From the sequence record PX915677.1: a stretch of 64,000 nucleotides of DNA, one strand, 5' to 3'. Below the pieces are notes generated by a model, which saw only the letters and a list, made by a program, of their open reading frames with translations, did not search any database and was not told where the DNA came from. This DNA comes from a phage. Below are positions 55,989 through 64,000 of this stretch, in pieces. Each line of letters opens with the position of its first letter. The stretch's first letter is position 1. Position numbers and translations under genes: made by a program.

Positions 55989-56204
55989 CTAAAAGTCACT
56001 TGATTCTACAAAAGCATCACTAAGGATTTCGTCAATTTCTTTGTTAGTCAAATCTTTCCTGAACCAACAACAAGGTACATCCACCCATTGACCAGAGTTG
56101 TTTTCTACAGAGCATCTATTGCCTGTCTTACTCTTGCACTTATAGGTTTTACCTTTGTCTAGACGATAATGTATTCTGTGAACGATCGACACAAGCGTTA
56201 TCAT
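55989..56204 (-). CDS. hypothetical protein
   Basis: 71-aa ORF. Confidence 0.35.
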   Translation of the reverse strand: MITLVSIVHRIHYRLDKGKTYKCKSKTGNRCSVENNSGQWVDVPCCWFRKDLTNKEIDEILSDAFVESSDF

Positions 56205-56437
56205 TACTCGCCTTTCTTAGCACGATCTTTGGCAGTTTTGCCAGTGCGGATGCGATGAGAAACGTTAACCAGAGTGCCACCATCAACTACGGTAACGCTC
56301 TTGTTTTTAGCCAGATCGAACACAGTTTTCTCTGTGCCACCCAAGCGAATTTGCTTAGGCTCACTGAAGGTTTGGGTTGATTTGGATTGGAACTGGAACG
56401 GTTGACGGATTGCATCGATTGCGCTTACTTTAGACAT
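56204..56437 (-). CDS. hypothetical protein
   Basis: 77-aa ORF. Confidence 0.35.
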   Translation of the reverse strand: MSKVSAIDAIRQPFQFQSKSTQTFSEPKQIRLGGTEKTVFDLAKNKSVTVVDGGTLVNVSHRIRTGKTAKDRAKKGE

Positions 56438-56669
56438 AGGGGAAATTCCTTAAAAAGTCATGGCTGCGTAGAGGGAATTCCCTACGCAAATTGGGCCGCC
56501 CACAGAGAGGCGTCATAGTACTAAAAGGAGGAGAGAAGAGGGCTTATTTAGCTACCTTTTTCTGTCCGTTTACGAACCAGATAATCGAACCATCAGGCTG
56601 TCGTTGACCGAAGCCTTTCTGGTTAATCATATCGTCATAAGAATATGCTTTACGTCTCATTTGTTTTAC

Positions 56670-56918
56670 CTACGAAGTTAAGATGATTTCAGCCTTAACA
56701 TATTTCTCACCAACAACCATATCACCAGAGATGACACGTAGTTCTCCAGTGCCTAGGTTAACAGCTCCAGCAGGTTGGCAACCTCTGCTCTTAGCTGTCA
56801 GCATATAAATCTTTTGAAGATGGCACTCTTGGAGAGTGAACACATCTGACATGTTTAGATCTTTAACACGGAGGACTGTTTCCTCTTTGCTCTTAACTTT
56901 AATATGTATTGTGCTCAT
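56670..56918 (-). CDS. small protein, expanded paralog family
   Basis: Family pattern L..L..G.vF...Y.....NL..G. Confidence 0.4.
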   Translation of the reverse strand: MSTIHIKVKSKEETVLRVKDLNMSDVFTLQECHLQKIYMLTAKSRGCQPAGAVNLGTGELRVISGDMVVGEKYVKAEIILTS

Positions 56919-56920
56919 GC

Positions 56921-57166
56921 CTACTCCTGAACCACTGACATACGAATCATTTCTACCTGATCATCAAGACCTTTAACAGATAGCACACCTGTGGAAAGGT
57001 TTACCACAGGAACCCAACCACTGGCTATACGGATGTTACCAGAAGCATTTTCAACCCTCATATAATATTGAGGAGAAGCACTTCCGTTCTGAACTACGAA
57101 TGGGTTTCCGGGAATGATTGTTTCCAATCGAACCGTATTATCCTTTTTCTTTGGGATGATTTTCAT
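56921..57166 (-). CDS. small protein, expanded paralog family
   Basis: MKIIPKKKDNTVRLETIIPGNPFVV... Confidence 0.4.
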   Translation of the reverse strand: MKIIPKKKDNTVRLETIIPGNPFVVQNGSASPQYYMRVENASGNIRIASGWVPVVNLSTGVLSVKGLDDQVEMIRMSVVQE

Positions 57167-57414
57167 TATGTATTATCCACCAAAAGTTCTGCCGATACAG
57201 GGACAACTCGGCACCAGATAGAAGGGGCTGTTACGTTACCATCAGATAGACGAAGAGTGATTGCTCGATCGGAGTTAACGGTTACATTAGGACTTTCAGA
57301 CACAGACCCTTTGACATAGAGAGTAGAACTCTCAGGGAATTTAAATACTGCTCCACTAGGAAGAGAGTTGATATCAACCGTGGACACTTCTTCTTTCTTG
57401 TGAGTAATCTTCAT
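57166..57414 (-). CDS. small protein, expanded paralog family
   Basis: MKITHKKEEVSTVDINSLPSGAVFKF... Confidence 0.4.
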   Translation of the reverse strand: MKITHKKEEVSTVDINSLPSGAVFKFPESSTLYVKGSVSESPNVTVNSDRAITLRLSDGNVTAPSIWCRVVPVSAELLVDNT

Positions 57415-57422
57415 ATTGATTC

Positions 57423-57734
57423 CTATTTAAGTTTGAGGCTAATATTAAGGTGCATACATGCCCTGTTCTGTACAGCAGCATAACTTCTACCAAGCATGTC
57501 AGCCATTCTCTGAATAGACATAAACCCGGCATTACGGATAAGGAACTGATCTTCTTCTTTAGACCACTTGACTCGGATTGAAGCTCTTGATATTCCGAAT
57601 TTAGTGCAAGCTGTGTTAACAGCATTCTCCGTTACATTCATAATCTGAGCAACTTCTTGAACCGAGTACTCTTTGATCAGTCTCCGAAGATTTTCAATCT
57701 GCATCGGAGTCCATATAGTTCTTCGTGCTTTCAT
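57423..57734 (-). CDS. HTH DNA-binding protein (putative transcription regulator)
   Basis: Two helix-turn-helix-like repeats (QIENLRRLIKEYSVQEVAQIMNVTENAV / EEDQFLIRNAGFMSIQRMADMLGRSYAAV). Confidence 0.4.
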   Translation of the reverse strand: MKARRTIWTPMQIENLRRLIKEYSVQEVAQIMNVTENAVNTACTKFGISRASIRVKWSKEEDQFLIRNAGFMSIQRMADMLGRSYAAVQNRACMHLNISLKLK

Positions 57735-58024
57735 ACATCCTCCAATTAAACGTTTATATAAGACTTGCTTAGATAAAGATTCAATAAAATAGGGGGAGGG
57801 GACGAATCCTCCCTTATCCTATTAGTTAATATTGCATGTAAGATCTAACAATCGGTTGCCTTTGTAGGAATAAGCGTTATGCTAATCCAGCACTAAACTC
57901 CCGCCCCCTTAGTGGGCTGGGTTATTAAAGGGTAACGCCCTTATGGGCTAGTTACATGAATGTTAGTTTGATAGGAGATCTGAAGTCCTATCTCAAAGGA
58001 CTCTCGTAAGAATCCTTCACGATA

Positions 58025-58282
58025 TTACTTAAAGATAAAATGAATAACTGCATCATATGCTTTAAACAGAAGCCAACCTATTGGATAAAAAACTCCTGAC
58101 AGTATTGAGATAGGCCACAACACAATTAAGAGAACAACCATCATCTCATCAGGTTCAGAGCTGGTAGACCCTGTTGTAATGACCCCTTTTAGTAGACCTT
58201 TCTTGTATAGCAGTTTCATCACTAAGACAGAAAGGAATACTCCAATAAAGTAAACTGAGATAAAAATATCAAGTAAACCCAT
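58025..58282 (-). CDS. small multi-TM membrane protein
   Basis: 85 aa with hydrophobic segments FISVYFIGVFLSVLV and VVLLIVLWPISILSGVF. Confidence 0.4.
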   Translation of the reverse strand: MGLLDIFISVYFIGVFLSVLVMKLLYKKGLLKGVITTGSTSSEPDEMMVVLLIVLWPISILSGVFYPIGWLLFKAYDAVIHFIFK

Positions 58283-58434
58283 TTAATCGTCTCTTACTTG
58301 TTCAACTTTCGTCGGCTATCTCTCCAAGCCAACCAAGTGTAGGTTTTCAGTTCTTCAAAGTCTTCTGGAGAGAATAGATAATCTTTGAAGGTGTTCCCAA
58401 ACCACTCTAAAAATTCTTCAGTCATAAGATTCTC

Positions 58435-58608
58435 TTAACAAGATTGGTCACACGGCTGATCACCACATGTTTTACAGATCACTGGTGAGTAACTACAGGC
58501 AGGATAAACAGACACCCCATCAAACGTCTCACATCCACAATCAGGACATGTACCGTTGGATTCCATGTCATCATCGTCATCTACTTCACCGCCACCAAAA
58601 CAACTCAT
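58435..58608 (-). CDS. small Cys-rich protein (57 aa)
   Basis: MSCFGGGEVDDDDDMESNGTCPDCGCETFDG...CKTCGDQPCDQSC; SD aaggag; not in ORF track. Confidence 0.35.
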   Translation of the reverse strand: MSCFGGGEVDDDDDMESNGTCPDCGCETFDGVSVYPACSYSPVICKTCGDQPCDQSC

Positions 58609-58617
58609 ACAGGCTCC

Positions 58618-58839
58618 TTAGTAAACTAAACCTGTAGCCTTTGCATCAGGCTGAGGGACTACTTTTGCACTAGGGCGATAGCCATCCACTGAGCCGTTCC
58701 AAAGATTGACACAGGTGATATATCCATCGTCTATGATGTCTGTTTTAATCCAGAAGTGTTTATCATGACCAAAAATACTTCCGTTTGGCAGCGTGGACAA
58801 TTCAACAGTTTTAAGTGACTGCTTAGAGTCTAGTTTCAT
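58618..58839 (-). CDS. small protein, expanded paralog family
   Basis: LKTVELSTLPNGSIFGHDKHFWIKTD...CVNLWNGSV. Confidence 0.4.
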   Translation of the reverse strand: MKLDSKQSLKTVELSTLPNGSIFGHDKHFWIKTDIIDDGYITCVNLWNGSVDGYRPSAKVVPQPDAKATGLVY

Positions 58840-58848
58840 ATAAGTTCC

Positions 58849-59046
58849 TTAATATACCAAACCATGTAAAAGAAACATCCTCTTTGTAAGCTCTGCTTTA
58901 GCTCTGTAATAAGCCTTAGAACCTAACAGGCGGCTCTTAACAAAGAACTTAATGTCATTGCTAACATCTTGTATTAAACGCTCCTGTACAGTTTCTGAGG
59001 AGTTATTAATCGAATCAATTAACACCTTTGTAGATGTGTAATTCAT
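58849..59046 (-). CDS. hypothetical small protein
   Basis: Start at MNYTSTK, 1 nt after lipoprotein stop. Confidence 0.3.
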   Translation of the reverse strand: MNYTSTKVLIDSINNSSETVQERLIQDVSNDIKFFVKSRLLGSKAYYRAKAELTKRMFLLHGLVY

Positions 59047-59047
59047 A

Positions 59048-59347
59048 TCACCACTCCTTACCGGTTGTAATCGTAGAGCCACCACACCACAATGCTGTAT
59101 CAATAACAACATTATCCGGTGTAGACTTCTCTTCGTTGATAGAAGGGTTAGCATTAGAACAGGTTGCTCCGTTCCATCGCATATCAATTTCACCAGAAGG
59201 AATCTTCTCACCCTTATGCCAGCGAGAAACACAAACACCTTCCACTGCTACTGCACACCATCCATCAGGACGGCTCTGTACGCAGCCTGTAAGGGCTATG
59301 CAGACAAGGAAGATACAGATTAAGGATATTACACCACCCCAACTCAT
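59048..59347 (-). CDS. lipoprotein (Cys-rich)
   Basis: Signal peptide ISLICIFLVCIALTGC with lipobox LTGC. Confidence 0.5.
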   Translation of the reverse strand: MSWGGVISLICIFLVCIALTGCVQSRPDGWCAVAVEGVCVSRWHKGEKIPSGEIDMRWNGATCSNANPSINEEKSTPDNVVIDTALWCGGSTITTGKEW

Positions 59348-59366
59348 AATTACCTCCTATTAGATT

Positions 59367-59400
59367 TGGTGGACTATCTGGAATCGAACCAGAAGCTCAC
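59367..59400 (-). other. tRNA-like 3' fragment (T-arm plus acceptor-CCA), degenerate
   Basis: Minus-strand ...TCTGG-TTCGATT-CCAGA-TAGTCC-ACCA; no pairing 5' acceptor strand found by eye. Confidence 0.3.
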
Positions 59401-59487
59401 TAAGAAAGTAATTCCCACTGTTATAAAAGCACTTGCCTCAACAGGGATACACTAACTCTGGTGCCGCACCCATACTAGCCCTAAATG

Positions 59488-59563
59488 TGGTGCGCCCTAC
59501 AGGACTCGAACCTGTAACCAATAGCTTAGAAGGCTACTGCTCTATCCATTGAGCTAAGAGCGC
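59488..59563 (-). tRNA. tRNA-Arg (anticodon TCT)
   Basis: Hand-folded cloverleaf: acceptor GCGCTCT/AGGGCGC, D-arm GCTC-AATGGAT-AGAGC, anticodon loop CTTCTAA, T-arm ACAGG-TTCGAGT-CCTGT, encoded CCA. Confidence 0.8.
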
Positions 59564-59571
59564 AGAATTAT

Positions 59572-59736
59572 TTAGATCATATCTCGCTTGGTGATATGAC
59601 CACATGTTTTACATCGAAGTATATAACGAGTACCTGTGTCTTCTATTTGACCAATCTCATTATATATGTGTAAACGAATTTCTTTTATTGTCTCCCAATC
59701 ATGGAGATGGAAGAAACGTTTAAACCACTTGAACAT
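59572..59736 (-). CDS. hypothetical small CxxC protein
   Basis: Internal start MFKWFKRFFHLHDWE...; ends ..RCKTCGHITKRDMI. Confidence 0.25.
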   Translation of the reverse strand: MFKWFKRFFHLHDWETIKEIRLHIYNEIGQIEDTGTRYILRCKTCGHITKRDMI

Positions 59737-59743
59737 AATAACC

Positions 59744-59995
59744 TCAAGCACAAGCAGGGAGAGTGATGATTTTATGCTTACCGTCAAACTCTCCAAACAA
59801 ACCCAAGAATGTAGGACTGTAAGTTCCAGTGCAAACAAACTCATCAAACAATGCGTTATAGCTAGGCTTAATCTTCCAAGCCCATACATAACCCATCTTA
59901 TCGATTGCAATGTAACGAGTGTTCAGAGGAACAGTCATCATCACATCGTCAACTTCGATCACTTTAGTTATTGGTGCAGCTTGAAAGTTTTTCAT
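59744..59995 (-). CDS. hypothetical protein
   Basis: 83-aa ORF. Confidence 0.35.
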   Translation of the reverse strand: MKNFQAAPITKVIEVDDVMMTVPLNTRYIAIDKMGYVWAWKIKPSYNALFDEFVCTGTYSPTFLGLFGEFDGKHKIITLPACA

Positions 59996-60225
59996 TACAT
60001 TTCCTCTAATTTAAGAGTTGCTTTATACTCTGTAACTGGAACGTGCCCAGCGAATGAAAGCTTATGGGCAGGATGTGATAAATTTACAGAAAAACCTCCC
60101 CCAATCTTCATGTAGAACTTCTTTTTGTCCCAAGATGGGCACTCATCAAGTGAGAAGATTGATCCAACGCTCAAACCTCGGAAAGTCTTTTGGTCTGTTT
60201 TAGTTGAGCCTAGAATGATATTCAT
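59995..60225 (-). CDS. small protein, expanded paralog family
   Basis: FRGLSVGSIFSLDE...FSVNLSH; ATGA coupling with upstream small ORF. Confidence 0.4.
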   Translation of the reverse strand: MNIILGSTKTDQKTFRGLSVGSIFSLDECPSWDKKKFYMKIGGGFSVNLSHPAHKLSFAGHVPVTEYKATLKLEEM

Positions 60226-60398
60226 ACTTTACCTTTAATGAAAATGTCATTACCACAGACACAGCATGAACGAACAACAGTAGCGCCACGCTGAACGATA
60301 CGAACCTCTTCCTTAACCAGATTGACACGAGCGCCGCAGCAAGGAGAGTTGACATAAGAGTAACCAGCTTGAGTATTCTTGATTGTTTGATTAGACAT
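60222..60398 (-). CDS. small Cys-rich zinc-ribbon protein (58 aa)
   Basis: MSNQTIKNTQAGYSYVNSPCCGARVNLV...RSCCVCGNDIF; SD gaggaag; not in ORF track. Confidence 0.35.
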   Translation of the reverse strand: MSNQTIKNTQAGYSYVNSPCCGARVNLVKEEVRIVQRGATVVRSCCVCGNDIFIKGKV

Positions 60399-60442
60399 TT
60401 TAGCTTCCTCTTGTTAGTTTAAGTAAGAGTTGTCCCTTAATT

Positions 60443-60471
60443 AAAACAACAAAGGCCGCCTTCGGGCAGCC
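60443..60471 (-). terminator. rho-independent terminator (minus strand)
   Basis: ggcugcc-cgaa-ggcggcc stem (G-U pair valid on minus strand only) followed by UUUGUUGUUUU. Confidence 0.6.
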
Positions 60472-60476
60472 TCTCT

Positions 60477-60728
60477 TTATTGACTCACACCACGAATCAG
60501 ATGATTCTGTAGCGTCCCGTCTTCTGCATTATACAGGAATGCAAACATCAATTCTTTAGCCACATCTCTTGAACAATTAAGACACTTAGAGATTTGCGTT
60601 AGTTGCATGTTGCGTTCTGTGTGTTCCATCAAGGCAATGCGAATGATTTCTCGCATACCTATTACATGAACTGTTTTAACCGGCATAGGTCCAATTGCCT
60701 TGCTTGTTACGAATGGCTGACATTGCAT
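60477..60728 (-). CDS. hypothetical protein
   Basis: 83-aa ORF; start ambiguous (alternative ATG at 60686); overlapping 45-aa ORF 60676..60816 also possible. Confidence 0.3.
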   Translation of the reverse strand: MQCQPFVTSKAIGPMPVKTVHVIGMREIIRIALMEHTERNMQLTQISKCLNCSRDVAKELMFAFLYNAEDGTLQNHLIRGVSQ

Positions 60729-61136
60729 GAATCCAGAAGCCTTCCAGTTTCAGAGCACCATTAGCTACTGCATCCATACGTTCAGGGCGGTTCATACGTT
60801 TGGTTGATACTTTCATACCTATCTCTCTTTGTTAGTGGAGGCATTATTGCCAGTTGATATAAGGGATAGCCCTAGTCAGTAGACTAATCCTGACCGCGTA
60901 CTCATTGCCGACCTTCTCTGCCTAAGAGTTCAGGTTCTAGAGCTATCTCTTATCCCAACTGGTGAAGACTCCCTACCCCTAGGAAGTCTCCTGAATCCCA
61001 AACCAATACGTACCCCTACATATCAGAAAGTCTTTCGAAAATTAACAGGTTTTAGTCTAACACCGGATGTTCGAGCAAGCTCTCCCTAGCGGTGTGGCAT
61101 ATGCCTGAATTAATAAGTTAATGAGGAACACCCTCA

Positions 61137-61164
61137 CATAGCCCTCTGATAAACACAAGGGCTA
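61137..61164 (-). other. conserved stable hairpin element (copy 2)
   Basis: atagccct/agggctat 8-bp perfect stem with 12-nt loop just after stop of 61175..61393; preceded by the shared 13-mer. Confidence 0.4.
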
Positions 61165-61174
61165 TAAGTCGGTG

Positions 61175-61393
61175 TTACTTTTGGGATAAACACAGATCAG
61201 GTCGTGGCATAACAGTGGTTGATAGACCGAAGACTTCAACAGAACCACTGCTCAAGTTAGCAGCCTTACACAAACCATCAGGGGTTTTATCTTCTAGCAT
61301 CAGCCAGAAACGTTTATCATAAGAGAAAACATCACCACCTTTAACGTCCTCTGCATTTGCATATTTAGGATAATCAACTACTTTAATTTCCAT
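61175..61393 (-). CDS. small protein, expanded paralog family
   Basis: KGGDVFSYDKRFWLMLED...ANLSSGSV. Confidence 0.4.
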   Translation of the reverse strand: MEIKVVDYPKYANAEDVKGGDVFSYDKRFWLMLEDKTPDGLCKAANLSSGSVEVFGLSTTVMPRPDLCLSQK

Positions 61394-61403
61394 CTAATTG
61401 CCC

Positions 61404-61622
61404 TTATTGATATATAGAAAGGTGGATAAGTTTATTAACATGAGCGAAGTTAGGAAGGATTTGCATCTCATTGTTGAAGATATTAAAACAACGAACCCCG
61501 CCCTCTACAGCATAAGCAGATTTCTGAAACAGACTGCCTCCCCACACAAATACATCATGTGTTTCAAGAGATCGTAACTGAACAGCTTCGTCAACAATCT
61601 TCTTTTCAATGTTCATATTCAC
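61404..61622 (-). CDS. small protein, expanded paralog family (divergent)
   Basis: LRSLETHDVFVWGG... Confidence 0.35.
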   Translation of the reverse strand: MNMNIEKKIVDEAVQLRSLETHDVFVWGGSLFQKSAYAVEGGVRCFNIFNNEMQILPNFAHVNKLIHLSIYQ

Positions 61623-61870
61623 TTCCGATTGGTAATTACTGCATCATGGATAACTGAAACAGGTAAGTTTGAATCTAGCTTCATTACTTGATTGGTGCTT
61701 AAACTGAGCACTACACAACCATTCCGAAGATCAGTCTCTGACACATGTGGTGTATATAACTGAACGATCATGTAATAATCAATACATGTTGCCTTAACTT
61801 GGAATACATCACCAAGTTTCAAATCACCCACACACAATTCTTTAGCTTTCATCTCAAGATCAATCTTCAT
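61619..61870 (-). CDS. small protein, expanded paralog family
   Basis: LCVGDLKLGDVFQVKATCIDYYMI. Confidence 0.4.
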   Translation of the reverse strand: MKIDLEMKAKELCVGDLKLGDVFQVKATCIDYYMIVQLYTPHVSETDLRNGCVVLSLSTNQVMKLDSNLPVSVIHDAVITNRK

Positions 61871-62096
61871 CTTTAGCCTCTATGTTGGTTATGTGAAGAT
61901 CACTACGTACTTGGCAGACTTCATCCCGTTTAAAAGGCATGAGCTTTCCAGTTACCACATCAACACAGTTCACATAGTTATCTGCGTATAGTGTGTCGGT
62001 TCTAATATAAAGAGAGTCTTTACGCTCAAACAGAACCCCCGGCTTCATGTTATTTAAGCGAAGCATTGTACGATCGGATTTAATATTAACTTTCAT
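61860..62096 (-). CDS. small protein, expanded paralog family
   Basis: LRLNNMKPGVLFERKDSLYIRTD...CVDVVTGKL. Confidence 0.4.
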   Translation of the reverse strand: MKVNIKSDRTMLRLNNMKPGVLFERKDSLYIRTDTLYADNYVNCVDVVTGKLMPFKRDEVCQVRSDLHITNIEAKDED

Positions 62097-62098
62097 CT

Positions 62099-62356
62099 TT
62101 AATCCACCTTATTGGTAAGTCGAGCATTATCAACTACCTGAACAACAGTATCTTTTCTCAACATTGTTATTCTATCCGAAGTGAGATCTACTACTACTCT
62201 TTCGTCAGGCTTCCAACTAGCTGAATAAACGGTTGAGGAATCTAGCTTTACTGTAAGATATATTTTATTTTTAGGTGGAACAGTTTCAAAAACACTCCCC
62301 ACCTTCAGGTCTTTCAGTTGCTTGACTACAGGGGCTGTATTAATATCATGCTTCAT
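62099..62356 (-). CDS. small protein, expanded paralog family
   Basis: Start at MKHDINTAPVV with SD aggag; VKQLKDLKVGSVFETV... Confidence 0.4.
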   Translation of the reverse strand: MKHDINTAPVVKQLKDLKVGSVFETVPPKNKIYLTVKLDSSTVYSASWKPDERVVVDLTSDRITMLRKDTVVQVVDNARLTNKVD

Positions 62357-62642
62357 TGTTAATCTCCTGCTGCTTAGCAATAGCCACTCGTAAGTCTTCA
62401 TTAGCACGAGCAAGGCGCAACACTTCATGATTGAGGTTCTGAAGACGTTTGTTTCTGTCTTCAACTTGCATAATAAGATCGTTGAGTGTTACTTTAACTT
62501 TCTCGTTATACATCTCATCCACTCGAACTAGTGATTTATACATTCTCTCCCAGCTTGCTGCTTTGTTTCTGAGAACAATAAACCCTATAACGCTGATAGT
62601 TAAACAGCTTACAAAAAGGAATTTATATACTTCTAAAGTCAT
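62346..62642 (-). CDS. membrane-anchored coiled-coil protein
   Basis: N-terminal TM FLFVSCLTISVIGFIVL followed by heptad-rich helical region. Confidence 0.4.
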   Translation of the reverse strand: MTLEVYKFLFVSCLTISVIGFIVLRNKAASWERMYKSLVRVDEMYNEKVKVTLNDLIMQVEDRNKRLQNLNHEVLRLARANEDLRVAIAKQQEINNEA

Positions 62643-62841
62643 ATCATTTACCCTTTATCAGAGATTAAAAGTAATATTATTTAAGTAAGTTATATTTAGT
62701 AAACTTATTTTCTAAGAAATTTTCAAAGGGTCTATATACAGAGCATTACCCATAGTCCCAGAATACTGCCATCTTTTTCAATAAATTTACTAAGTGGTTG
62801 GTTTATAAAGGAATTTAGTTTGTCAAATCTGGCACTAGTGA

Positions 62842-63231
62842 TTATTCCCTAGAGCTATTATCGAACACTAAATCACCACAATACATAGGATTGGCATACC
62901 ATTTTGGCACCCCTTCGCTCTTACTCTGAAAGTAAGTCCCACTGTACAGCGGAACATAATTCTTCTTAAGGGCACGTTTAGCAAGTCGCTCGCTTTCTCC
63001 AATGGCTTGCTTAGTCATCGGATTTTTATCACGAATCAGCTTTACATAACGTTTATAAGGTTTCTCCTGTTTTAATAGTACCGGAATCCACTCAAACTGG
63101 TTCTTCTGTCTTATCACCTGTTCAGCGGTCAGTTTTCGTTGGGCCATTCTATTTATCACGGTATCCGCAACTAAAGCCTTACATGCGGTTGGCTGATTCC
63201 CTGCCTCATAATAAATAGTCAATGTCAACAT
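62842..63231 (-). CDS. SleB/CwlJ-like cell wall hydrolase domain protein
   Basis: TIYYEAGNQPTACKALVADTVINRM...EQVIRQKNQFEWI matches Hydrolase_2 (SleB) core pattern. Confidence 0.5.
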   Translation of the reverse strand: MLTLTIYYEAGNQPTACKALVADTVINRMAQRKLTAEQVIRQKNQFEWIPVLLKQEKPYKRYVKLIRDKNPMTKQAIGESERLAKRALKKNYVPLYSGTYFQSKSEGVPKWYANPMYCGDLVFDNSSRE

Positions 63232-63341: not shown

Positions 63342-64000
63342 TTACCACTCGTAACTTACACCAGCGCCCAGAACAGCGTCACTCTCTGAAGTCATTGCCA
63401 CTGATGCTTTAGTTACTACGTTTTCATTGAAACGAGCACTAACACCAATAGCAAGAGCAGATTCACCATCGTAAGCACCTACCCCAGCACCAACAGAGAA
63501 AGCAGATCCTTGACTTACTTGCGGGATGTTAGCCATTGCAGCCACGCCAGAAATACCAGCAGAGGCATGATCACGGTTACGGTCTACTTGTTTTTGCAAA
63601 GAAGCAAAACGTTTATTGGTGGATTGTTCCAGAGCTTTGATGGATTTGGCGTTAGCATTAACGGCAGACATATCTGCATCTTTACCATTTTTGCCATTTA
63701 ATCCGTCAACGCCATTCAAACCTGCTGCACCAGTTAGGCCAGTTTCGCCTCTCTTACCATCTGCACCAGAATCACCTTTTTCACCTTGAGCGCCTTGTTC
63801 TCCATCAATGCCATCTTTACCATCAATGCCATCTTTACCATCAATGCCATCTTTACCATCAATGCCATCTTTACCATCAATGCCATCTTTACCATCAATG
63901 CCATCTTTACCATCAATGCCATCTTTACCATCAATGCCATCTTTACCATCAATGCCATCTTTACCATCAATGCCATCTTTACCATCAATGCCATCTTTAC
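63342..64000 (-). CDS. collagen-like repeat protein with YadA-anchor-like C-terminal domain (5' partial, continues beyond window)
   Basis: Frame of listed ORF 63342..63719 stays open upstream through uninterrupted Gly-X-Y triplets (GET GLT GAA ... then (GKDGID)n); C-terminus GVAAMANIPQ...GAGVSYEW resembles trimeric autotransporter anchor. Confidence 0.55.
   Translation of the reverse strand, partial: KDGIDGKDGIDGKDGIDGKDGIDGKDGIDGKDGIDGKDGIDGKDGIDGKDGIDGKDGIDGKDGIDGEQGAQGEKGDSGADGKRGETGLTGAAGLNGVDGLNGKNGKDADMSAVNANAKSIKALEQSTNKRFASLQKQVDRNRDHASAGISGVAAMANIPQVSQGSAFSVGAGVGAYDGESALAIGVSARFNENVVTKASVAMTSESDAVLGAGVSYEW
63802..64000. repeat. perfect 18-bp tandem repeat array, at least 10 copies, truncated by window end
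   Basis: Unit ccatctttaccatcaatg repeated head-to-tail from 63811; encodes (GKDGID)n on the minus strand. Confidence 0.9.

What the first reader, a model, noticed from the sequence alone, without database searches (positions are those of the whole stretch)
56670..62356. Expanded family of at least 10 paralogous 70-85-aa proteins in the early region
ORFs 56670..56918, 56921..57166, 57166..57414, 58618..58839, 59995..60225, 61175..61393, 61404..61622, 61619..61870, 61860..62096 and 62099..62356 share a recognisable but divergent pattern (MK...L..L..G.vF....Y.....NL..G...). They are mostly in tandem, often translationally coupled, and separated by small Cys-rich ORFs. Such expansion in an early region fits a rapidly diversifying host-takeover or anti-defence family.
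Basis: seen in the sequence. Interest (0 to 1): 0.55.

Follow-up and report, generated by a model that had tools for sequence, protein, structure and literature searches.

The report
Ten-copy small beta-barrel early-protein family
A phiEco32-like E. coli phage carries ten diverged copies of one tiny beta-barrel protein among its early genes; the family is real, widespread in phages (it includes N4 gp21), shares its domain with bacterial SprT-like proteases, and has no known function.

Summary
The window is a Kuravirus (phiEco32-like) genome, and the ten ORFs lie on the minus strand in its early gene cluster. Pairwise identity is only 14-35%. Even so, leave-one-group-out profiles recover every member (E 6e-10 to 0.034; best non-family or decoy 0.09-3). 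Profile-profile comparison mostly ranks family groups above all other early ORFs. A six-frame scan of the 64 kb finds exactly these ten.

The family has no Pfam model and is split over at least nine PHROGs of unknown function. It has about 1,500 50%-identity clusters in metagenomes. It includes N4 gp21, and is multi-copy in Grimontviridae. Its domain is homologous to C-terminal repeats of Bacteroidota SprT-like proteases.

Copy number varies from 7 to 10 among nine kuraviruses. Orthologues are unusually diverged but under purifying selection (dN/dS 0.05-0.25), so "rapidly diversifying" is only partly right.

Function is untested. The best inference is a conserved scaffold with variable surfaces that binds different host or defence targets.

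The parts
62099..62356 (-). m10, 85 aa, first gene of the five-gene tandem array. Overlaps the upstream gene 62346-62642 by 11 nt. Among the nine kuraviruses compared, a full-length counterpart was found only here and in NJ01.
   Evidence: (leave-one-out E 5e-7)
61860..62096 (-). m9, 78 aa, orthologue of phiEco32 gp115. This is the member whose structure was modelled.
   Evidence: phrog_16423; E 1e-7; pLDDT 85, six strands
61619..61870 (-). m8, 83 aa, orthologue of phiEco32 gp114. Overlaps m9 by 11 nt.
   Evidence: phrog_9955; E 3e-7
Statistically the weakest member. Present in only 3 of the 9 kuraviruses compared.
   Evidence: phrog_33163, weak hit to phrog_6570; hhalign 82% to the m4/m6 group; E 0.034 versus 1.2 for the best non-family hit; strand pattern matches that of m9
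61175..61393 (-). m6, 72 aa, orthologue of phiEco32 gp113. Last gene of the five-gene array and closest paralogue of m4 (35% identity).
   Evidence: m4-m6 BLASTP 2.5e-10; phrog_6570
59995..60225 (-). m5, 76 aa, solitary. Overlaps the upstream Cys-rich ORF 60222-60398 by 4 nt. Diverged counterpart of phiEco32 gp109.
   Evidence: phrog_10911 only; 94% to the gp109-like group, which links to other family groups; E 1.1e-3; its group's best 3.4e-5
58618..58839 (-). m4, 73 aa, solitary, orthologue of phiEco32 gp104. Followed 9 nt downstream by the Cys-rich ORF 58435-58608.
   Evidence: phrog_6570; E 1.8e-8
57166..57414 (-). m3, 82 aa, orthologue of phiEco32 gp97. First gene of the three-gene array, 8 nt downstream of the HTH gene 57423-57734.
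   Evidence: phrog_7832; E 9.5e-5
56921..57166 (-). m2, 81 aa, orthologue of phiEco32 gp96. Its start overlaps the m3 stop codon by 1 nt. The most conserved member among kuraviruses.
   Evidence: phrog_7431; E 6e-10; 86% mean identity
56670..56918 (-). m1, 82 aa, orthologue of phiEco32 gp95. Last gene of the three-gene array.
   Evidence: phrog_12612; E 6.5e-7

Best explanation
The ten ORFs are true paralogues of one family of 70-85-aa single-domain proteins with an SH3-like small beta-barrel fold (the 'N4 gp21-like' family).

Shown:
- They sit in the early, leftward-transcribed operons of a Kuravirus. Each has its own ATG and Shine-Dalgarno-like motif and is tightly packed against its neighbours.
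- Only about a dozen positions are conserved: the N-terminal M-K-I, L..L..G.vF, Y.K, vNL.tG, and a C-terminal V...L. These are mostly hydrophobic or glycine.
- The remaining positions vary freely, and the segment between the Y.K and vNL motifs also varies in length. pI ranges from 4.9 to 9.3.
- The genes evolve under purifying selection, but as an exchangeable, copy-number-variable cassette (7-10 copies).

Inferred:
- The arrays arose by old tandem duplications, with occasional newer ones.
- The family is a stable scaffold presenting diversified binding surfaces.
- Each paralogue binds stoichiometrically to a different host or host-defence macromolecule early in infection, for host takeover or counter-defence.
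- The homologous, strongly basic domain repeats at the C-terminus of Bacteroidota SprT-like proteases suggest the ancestral domain was a targeting or binding module, possibly for nucleic acid.
For: - Paralogy.
- Expression context: synteny with phiEco32 early genes and published early-class assignment (PMC8948821, PMC9965538, PMC4281155).
- Scaffold pattern: the column-information profile shows about 12 conserved, mostly hydrophobic or glycine positions, and charge is variable.
- Real, functional genes: dN/dS 0.05-0.25.
- Accessory behaviour: copy number 7-10, extra members elsewhere, and a 56%-identical adjacent duplicate in KBNP1711. Orthologue identity is low compared with neighbours.
- Breadth: 1,536 hits in 1.84 billion representatives, mostly full-length proteins of 65-90 aa. 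N4 gp21 scores E 9e-13 with a kuravirus-only HMM. Copies per stretch examined: 6 in Salmonella phage PKM.Hi.22.6, 3-5 in Proteus phage Privateer, 4 on a metagenomic contig.
- Cellular homologue: SprT repeats by hhalign at 95-97%, controls at most 1.5%, in a chromosomal context.
- Context: Gordonclarkvirinae are reported as remarkably resistant to restriction-modification systems, with no known inhibitor (PMC11990801).
Against: - There is no functional evidence of any kind for any member.
- No similarity was found to Pfam, NCBIfam or PADLOC families. No dedicated anti-defence library was available.
- No homologues were found on plasmids.
- There is no gene-wide signature of positive selection.
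- N4 gp21 lies downstream of the N4 RNAP II genes, outside the leftmost gene block, so the family may not be restricted to early genes.
- Small beta-barrels also commonly bind nucleic acids or oligomerise, and the fold alone cannot discriminate.
- The model of m9 used an alignment that mixes paralogues.
- The nine kuraviruses were chosen for divergence at m9, which may inflate the apparent divergence of linked genes.
Confidence: 0.55

Rival explanations
1. The domain is a KOW/EF-P/L2-type translation or transcription module. On this reading the paralogues bind RNA, DNA, the ribosome or RNA polymerase and modulate host gene expression, rather than binding diverse proteins.
For: - The family consensus gives a sub-threshold hit to Pfam EFP_N (E 0.018, 15.5 bits against a cut-off of 23).
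- The domain is fused to a SprT-like protease, where its hairpin loop is strongly basic. That enzyme class is DNA-dependent (established knowledge).
- It is also fused to a C-terminal helix-turn-helix in P0227.
Against: - No Pfam match reaches threshold.
- 70% of 131 metagenomic single-domain members have pI below 6 (median 5.1). Window members range from 4.9 to 9.3 with no conserved basic positions.
- The segment corresponding to the EF-P loop is the most variable part of the family.
Confidence: 0.2
2. The paralogues work together. They would assemble into a homo- or hetero-oligomer, such as an Sm/Hfq-like ring or an array. This would explain why many copies are kept and why natural 2-5-domain fusions exist.
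For: - Small beta-barrels often oligomerise (established knowledge).
- Tandem 2-4-domain proteins and 1-5-repeat SprT fusions occur.
- The low-confidence m7 model has an N-terminal helix followed by five strands, which is Sm-like in outline.
Against: - Copy number varies from 7 to 10 and individual members come and go between close relatives. N4 shows a single copy in the 16 kb examined. A fixed hetero-oligomer would not tolerate this.
- The m7 model is of low confidence (pLDDT 66).
Confidence: 0.08
3. The proteins act on the phage's own products. For example, they could be partners, antidotes or chaperones of the adjacent Cys-rich or other early proteins, in the manner of an antitoxin.
For: - The two solitary members sit immediately next to small Cys-rich ORFs, with a 4-nt overlap in one case and a 9-nt gap in the other.
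Against: - Eight of the ten members have no such neighbour.
- The Cys-rich ORFs are highly conserved (94-96% identity) while the family members are not, so there is no sign of co-variation.
- The VapX score is no better than those of unrelated SH3-like domains.
Confidence: 0.1
4. The shared pattern is an artefact of composition and short length, and the ORFs are unrelated.
For: Most pairwise BLASTP comparisons are insignificant, at 14-27% identity.
Against: - Leave-one-group-out profiles, profile-profile comparisons, reversed-sequence decoys and the whole-window six-frame scan all separate the ten from everything else.
- Distant metagenomic members hit five or six of the kuravirus PHROGs at once.
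Confidence: 0.02

Closest known systems
PHROG families 6570, 7832, 7431, 16423, 9955, 12612, 33163, 10911 (and 8365), all 'unknown function'
   Same: Each window member matches one of these families at E 5e-8 to 2e-54, so the individual proteins are already catalogued.
   Different: PHROGs treats them as separate families. Cross-hits and profile analyses show they form one superfamily. No Pfam or NCBIfam model covers it.
Bacteriophage N4 gp21 (74 aa, uncharacterised)
   Same: It is a member at the sequence level: a kuravirus-only HMM gives E 9e-13 (42 bits). Its predicted structure matches m9 with TM 0.79-0.83.
   Different: Only one copy was found in the first 16 kb of N4, and it lies downstream of the RNAP II genes rather than in a tandem array. 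No function is reported in the papers searched.
C-terminal repeats of Bacteroidota SprT-like metalloproteases (e.g. Tenacibaculum MFV0249145.1)
   Same: The domains are homologous: hhalign 95-97% over about 60 columns, with controls at most 1.5%. The same G..F, Y.K and hydrophobic pattern is present.
   Different: These are cellular, chromosomal proteins. The domain is fused to a protease in 1-5 copies. The hairpin loop is conserved and very basic (K-R-R-T-R-Y-x-C), unlike the variable loops of the phage proteins.
Translation-protein SH3-like, KOW and Tudor small beta-barrels (L2 C-domain, EF-P/eIF5A domain I, Spt5 KOW, SMN Tudor)
   Different: There is no significant sequence relationship: the best is EFP_N at E 0.018, below the cut-off. 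There is no conserved functional loop. This is a similarity of fold class only.
Variable accessory or anti-defence gene islands in phage early regions (e.g. anti-CRISPR loci, T4 and T7 early host-takeover genes)
   Same: They share the location in early operons, very small proteins, presence/absence variation between close relatives, and unknown or host-directed roles.
   Different: Those islands usually hold unrelated genes. Here about 8% of the phage's genes (10 of roughly 125) are paralogues of one fold. No anti-defence activity has been shown.

Membership tests
N4 gp21-like small beta-barrel family (defined here; unites nine PHROGs) | Single domain of about 65-90 aa with a collinear signature: MKI ... 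L..L..G.vF ... Y.K ... vNL.tG ... V...L | tested here: met
   The alignments show all ten members collinear. m5 and m7 deviate at some signature positions.
N4 gp21-like small beta-barrel family (defined here; unites nine PHROGs) | Significant match to a family profile built without the member's own orthologue group | tested here: met
   Nine members score E 6e-10 to 1.1e-3. m7 scores 0.034, against 1.2 for the best non-family hit, so it is marginal.
N4 gp21-like small beta-barrel family (defined here; unites nine PHROGs) | Predicted six-stranded SH3-like barrel | tested here: inconclusive
   Met for m9 (pLDDT 85). The m7 model has the same strand pattern but pLDDT 66. The other eight members were not modelled.
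KOW / EF-P domain I (Pfam PF00467, PF08207) | Sequence match above the Pfam gathering threshold | tested here: not met
   None of the ten gives a hit at E <= 1. The family consensus scores 15.5 bits against EFP_N, whose cut-off is 23.
KOW / EF-P domain I (Pfam PF00467, PF08207) | Conserved functional hairpin loop (the modified lysine in the PGKG loop of EF-P; the Gly-Lys motif of KOW) | tested here: not met
   The corresponding segment is the most variable part of the family in both length and sequence.
KOW / EF-P domain I (Pfam PF00467, PF08207) | SH3-like barrel fold | tested here: met
Sm / Hfq-like ring-forming barrels | Structural match to Sm or Hfq, and ring oligomerisation | tested here: not met
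Known phage anti-defence proteins (Ocr, ArdA, Tad1/2, Gad1, Acb, Acr families) | Sequence or profile match to a characterised anti-defence family | not testable with these tools
   No dedicated anti-defence HMM library was available. Pfam, NCBIfam and PDB sequences gave nothing. PADLOC, which holds defence systems, gave nothing.
Phage early (host-takeover) gene class | Transcribed early from host sigma70 promoters | not tested
   Inferred from synteny with phiEco32 gp95-97, 104, 109 and 113-115 and from published class assignments (PMC8948821, PMC9965538, PMC4281155). There are no expression data for this phage. The simple promoter scan was uninformative: 10 sites found against 20 expected.

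The most novel reading that the evidence does not exclude
The family would be a phage-encoded repertoire of diversified binders on one minimal beta-barrel scaffold. Each paralogue would neutralise a different host defence or takeover target, and the cassette would be reshuffled between phages. On this reading it would help explain the unusual resistance of Gordonclarkvirinae to restriction and other defences. It would also define a new, very widespread class of anti-defence or host-takeover proteins that includes N4 gp21 and derives from a cellular SprT-associated targeting domain.
Probability: 0.15. Interest if true: 0.75.

Novelty: new member of a known kind. Interest (0 to 1): 0.45.

Why it matters
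About 8% of this phage's genes belong to one uncharacterised family. That family also occurs in N4, Grimontviridae, Vibrio phages and roughly 1,500 metagenomic sequence clusters. Uniting nine "unknown" PHROGs and N4 gp21 into one SH3-like-barrel family turns many orphan early genes into a single tractable target: one structure and a handful of interaction screens would annotate a large block of phage dark matter. The link to a domain of bacterial SprT-like proteases adds a cellular starting point. Nearly identical phages (BASEL Bas90 SkaterBoy, about 97% identical in this region) infect a laboratory K-12 strain with restored O-antigen, and kuraviruses resist restriction by unknown means, so the family is a reasonable candidate set for counter-defence or host-takeover screens. 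Nothing here shows such a function yet.

Tried and rejected
- Pairwise BLASTP among the ten was mostly insignificant, so profiles were needed.
- Pfam, NCBIfam, PADLOC and PDB-sequence searches gave no usable match.
- The first word-indexed homologue search found only kuravirus proteins. A search with a single SprT repeat found no candidates at all.
- The NHL-repeat protein P0111, and probably the 1,723-aa P0187, are repeat-driven false positives in the large search, so the total of 1,536 is an upper estimate.
- PaP3 gp70.1, a known RpoS-binding early protein, is 131 aa and is not the PaP3 ORF.65 that matches structurally. It is therefore not relevant.
- Papers on N4 gp21, kuravirus anti-defence and phage transposon mutagenesis gave no functional data.
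- The two primary phiEco32 papers (PMC2587145, PMC3275717) are not held, so I could not check whether paralogy was noted there. The kuravirus papers that are held do not mention it.
- The AFDB50 fold library was unavailable.
- A consensus tblastn against plasmids found nothing.
- The promoter scan was below the shuffled expectation and gave no operon boundaries.
- Rfam found only the tRNA.


Full report
**Identity of the window.** The region 56000-63000 is 92-98% identical to phiEco32-like coliphages of the genus Kuravirus (Gordonclarkvirinae). The best matches are phage Ec3-ASingh, MN03 and BASEL phage Bas90 SkaterBoy. All ten ORFs are on the minus strand, and a tRNA-Arg(TCT) lies among them. 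By synteny they correspond to phiEco32 gp95, 96, 97 (m1-m3), gp104 (m4), gp109 (m5), gp113 (m6), gp114 (m8) and gp115 (m9). phiEco32 lacks counterparts of m7 and m10. Published work places this part of the genome in the early class. It is transcribed leftward from sigma70 promoters near the right end and consists almost entirely of proteins of unknown function (PMC8948821, PMC9965538, PMC4281155). I found no mention of paralogy in the kuravirus papers held. The two primary phiEco32 papers were not available.

**Is the similarity real?** Pairwise BLASTP is weak for most pairs, at 14-35% identity. Only m4-m6, m4-m9, m10-m8 and m10-m9 stand out. Four independent tests show the family is real.

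- PHROG scans put each member in its own family of unknown function. Secondary hits connect nine of the ten into one network.
- I extracted all ORFs of 40-160 aa on the coding strand from the early regions of this window and eight other kuraviruses, clustered them into orthologue groups, and compared group profiles with hhalign. For the m4/m6 group the nine best hits are all family groups (96% down to 7% probability), and the best unrelated group scores 1%. The other groups give the same picture, apart from a few unrelated groups at 3-7% among the weakest links.
- In leave-one-group-out tests, a profile trained on all other groups recovers every window member (E 6e-10 to 0.034). The best non-family ORF or reversed decoy scores 0.09-3. 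m7 (0.034) and m5 (0.0011) are the weakest.
- A six-frame scan of the whole 64-kb window with a broad family HMM finds exactly these ten ORFs, and no decoy scores below 0.96.

Metagenomic intermediates hit three to six of the kuravirus PHROGs at once, which confirms that those PHROGs belong together.

**Gene anatomy.** All ten have ATG starts preceded by Shine-Dalgarno-like motifs. Spacing to the upstream gene is -11 to +10 nt. Eight lie in two tandem arrays, m10-m9-m8-m7-m6 and m3-m2-m1. m4 and m5 are solitary, and each is adjacent to a small, highly conserved Cys-rich ORF. m7 should start at ATG 61616, as its 70-aa orthologues do.

**Conservation pattern.** In 203 aligned members only about a dozen positions carry information: the N-terminal M-K-I, two Leu, G..F, Y.K, V-N-L, a Gly, a Val and a Leu. 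These are mostly hydrophobic or glycine residues. The segment between Y.K and V-N-L varies in both length and sequence. Net charge is not conserved. The window members have pI 4.9-9.3, and 70% of 131 metagenomic members have pI below 6.

**Distribution.** An exhaustive HMMER search of 1.84 billion representative proteins gives 1,536 hits at E <= 1e-3. Of the best 150, 137 show a single matched stretch; nearly all of these are 65-90 aa and matched over almost their full length. At least one hit (an NHL-repeat protein), and probably a second, is a repeat artefact. Other findings on distribution:

- Genuine multi-domain forms exist. These include two- to four-domain proteins and a fusion to a C-terminal helix-turn-helix.
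- N4 gp21 is a clear member: a kuravirus-only HMM gives E 9e-13.
- Members are multi-copy in Salmonella phage PKM.Hi.22.6 (6 copies), Proteus phage Privateer (3-5) and a metagenomic contig (4). They are also present in a Vibrio phage.
- A consensus tblastn finds them in 99 phage records and in no plasmid.
- Chromosomal SprT-like metalloproteases of Bacteroidota carry one to five C-terminal copies of a homologous domain with a strongly basic hairpin loop. hhalign gives 95-97% over about 60 columns, with controls at most 1.5%, and the neighbouring genes are housekeeping genes.

**Evolution.** Copy number in nine kuraviruses is 7-10. Extra members absent from this window include phi32_98, ECBP3_0095 and an SR02 gene. 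KBNP1711 has a second, adjacent m4-like gene at 56% identity, which indicates duplication or acquisition after the main radiation. Family orthologue groups are among the least conserved early genes, at 51-73% mean identity (m2: 86%), while most neighbours are at 80-98%. However, dN/dS is 0.05-0.25, the same as for neighbouring genes. The excess divergence also appears at synonymous sites, with dS 0.35-1.2 against 0.1-0.3 for most neighbours. The genes are therefore functional and constrained. Their diversity looks like old alleles exchanged among phages rather than fast adaptive change. One caveat is that the comparison phages were chosen for divergence at m9, which may inflate values for linked genes.

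**Interpretation.** Four things are shown:

- The ten ORFs form a real ten-member paralogous family.
- The fold is an SH3-like small barrel.
- The genes are constrained, variable in copy number, and located in the early cluster.
- The family is widespread in phages and related to a cellular SprT-associated domain.

The mechanism is inferred. The family combines a minimal conserved core with surfaces free to vary in sequence, loop length and charge, and has many co-expressed copies. This pattern is what one expects of a binding scaffold whose paralogues recognise different targets. In an early operon those targets are most plausibly host or host-defence components. Gordonclarkvirinae are reported to be remarkably resistant to restriction systems without any known inhibitor (PMC11990801), which makes the counter-defence version worth testing.

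The main rival is a nucleic-acid- or ribosome-directed role, suggested by the KOW/L2/EF-P-like fold and by the SprT and HTH fusions. The mostly acidic, non-conserved surfaces weaken it. A cooperative hetero-oligomer is unlikely given the copy-number variation. A role as partners of neighbouring phage proteins has little support. Chance similarity is excluded.

**Novelty and score.** The individual proteins are already in databases as hypothetical proteins and as separate PHROGs. The following appear not to have been described in the literature I could search:

- the unification into one family;
- its fold class;
- its size;
- the inclusion of N4 gp21;
- the SprT link;
- the 7-10-copy expansion in kuraviruses.

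This is a new family of a familiar kind, namely small phage early proteins of unknown function. It is interesting as a tractable block of phage dark matter, but it is not surprising in principle.

Noticed in passing
window 58435-58608 and 60222-60398 (minus strand): Two Cys-rich ORFs of about 57 aa, possibly zinc-ribbon-like, with no Pfam match. They are 94-96% identical across kuraviruses, far more conserved than the family members they adjoin (m4 and m5).
   Followed up: partly
loci L014 and L015 (Tenacibaculum contigs), proteins P0110 and P0262-P0274: Chromosomal Bacteroidota SprT-like metalloproteases carry 1-5 C-terminal repeats homologous to the phage family (hhalign 95-97%). The repeats have a conserved, very basic loop (RRTRY.C). 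No Pfam model covers this domain.
   Followed up: partly
window 63342-63719 and 63734-63994 (minus strand): An early-region protein with a YadA-like membrane anchor (PF03895, E 5e-20). Immediately upstream of it, and running towards the window edge, is a perfectly periodic 18-nt coding repeat that reads MALMVK in one frame. phiEco32 annotates the homologue as 'agglutinating adhesin'.
   Followed up: no
window 62842-63231 (minus strand): A cell-wall hydrolase (PF07486) encoded among the early genes, far from the late lysis module.
   Followed up: no
window 57423-57734 (minus strand): A 103-aa protein resembling sigma70 region 4 (HTH; annotated 'D5-like transcriptional regulator' in relatives). 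It lies 8 nt upstream of the m3-m2-m1 array and follows a 290-nt ORF-free gap containing a terminator-like hairpin at 57813-57794.
   Followed up: no
window 60817-61174: A 358-nt stretch without a conserved ORF lies between m6 and the next gene. A strong terminator-like hairpin sits further downstream at 60474-60451. These are possible internal regulatory regions of the early cluster. Rfam finds nothing there.
   Followed up: partly
window 59488-59563 (minus strand): A tRNA-Arg (anticodon TCT) is embedded in the early operon. It is conserved in most relatives.
   Followed up: partly
public records MN715356.1, NC_070993.1, NC_018835.1 and others: Several family members are mis-annotated in public records as 'endolysin' (EcoN5, IMEP8: m9 orthologue) or 'putative two-domain glycosyltransferase' (NJ01_132: m7 orthologue). 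The neighbouring 98-aa gene (window 62346-62642) is called 'DNA helicase'. None of these names is supported by any domain match.
   Followed up: partly
locus L003 10383-10835 (phage KBNP1711): Two adjacent m4-like genes are only 56% identical to each other. One of them is 95% identical to the window's m4. This indicates lineage-specific duplication or acquisition within the family.
   Followed up: yes
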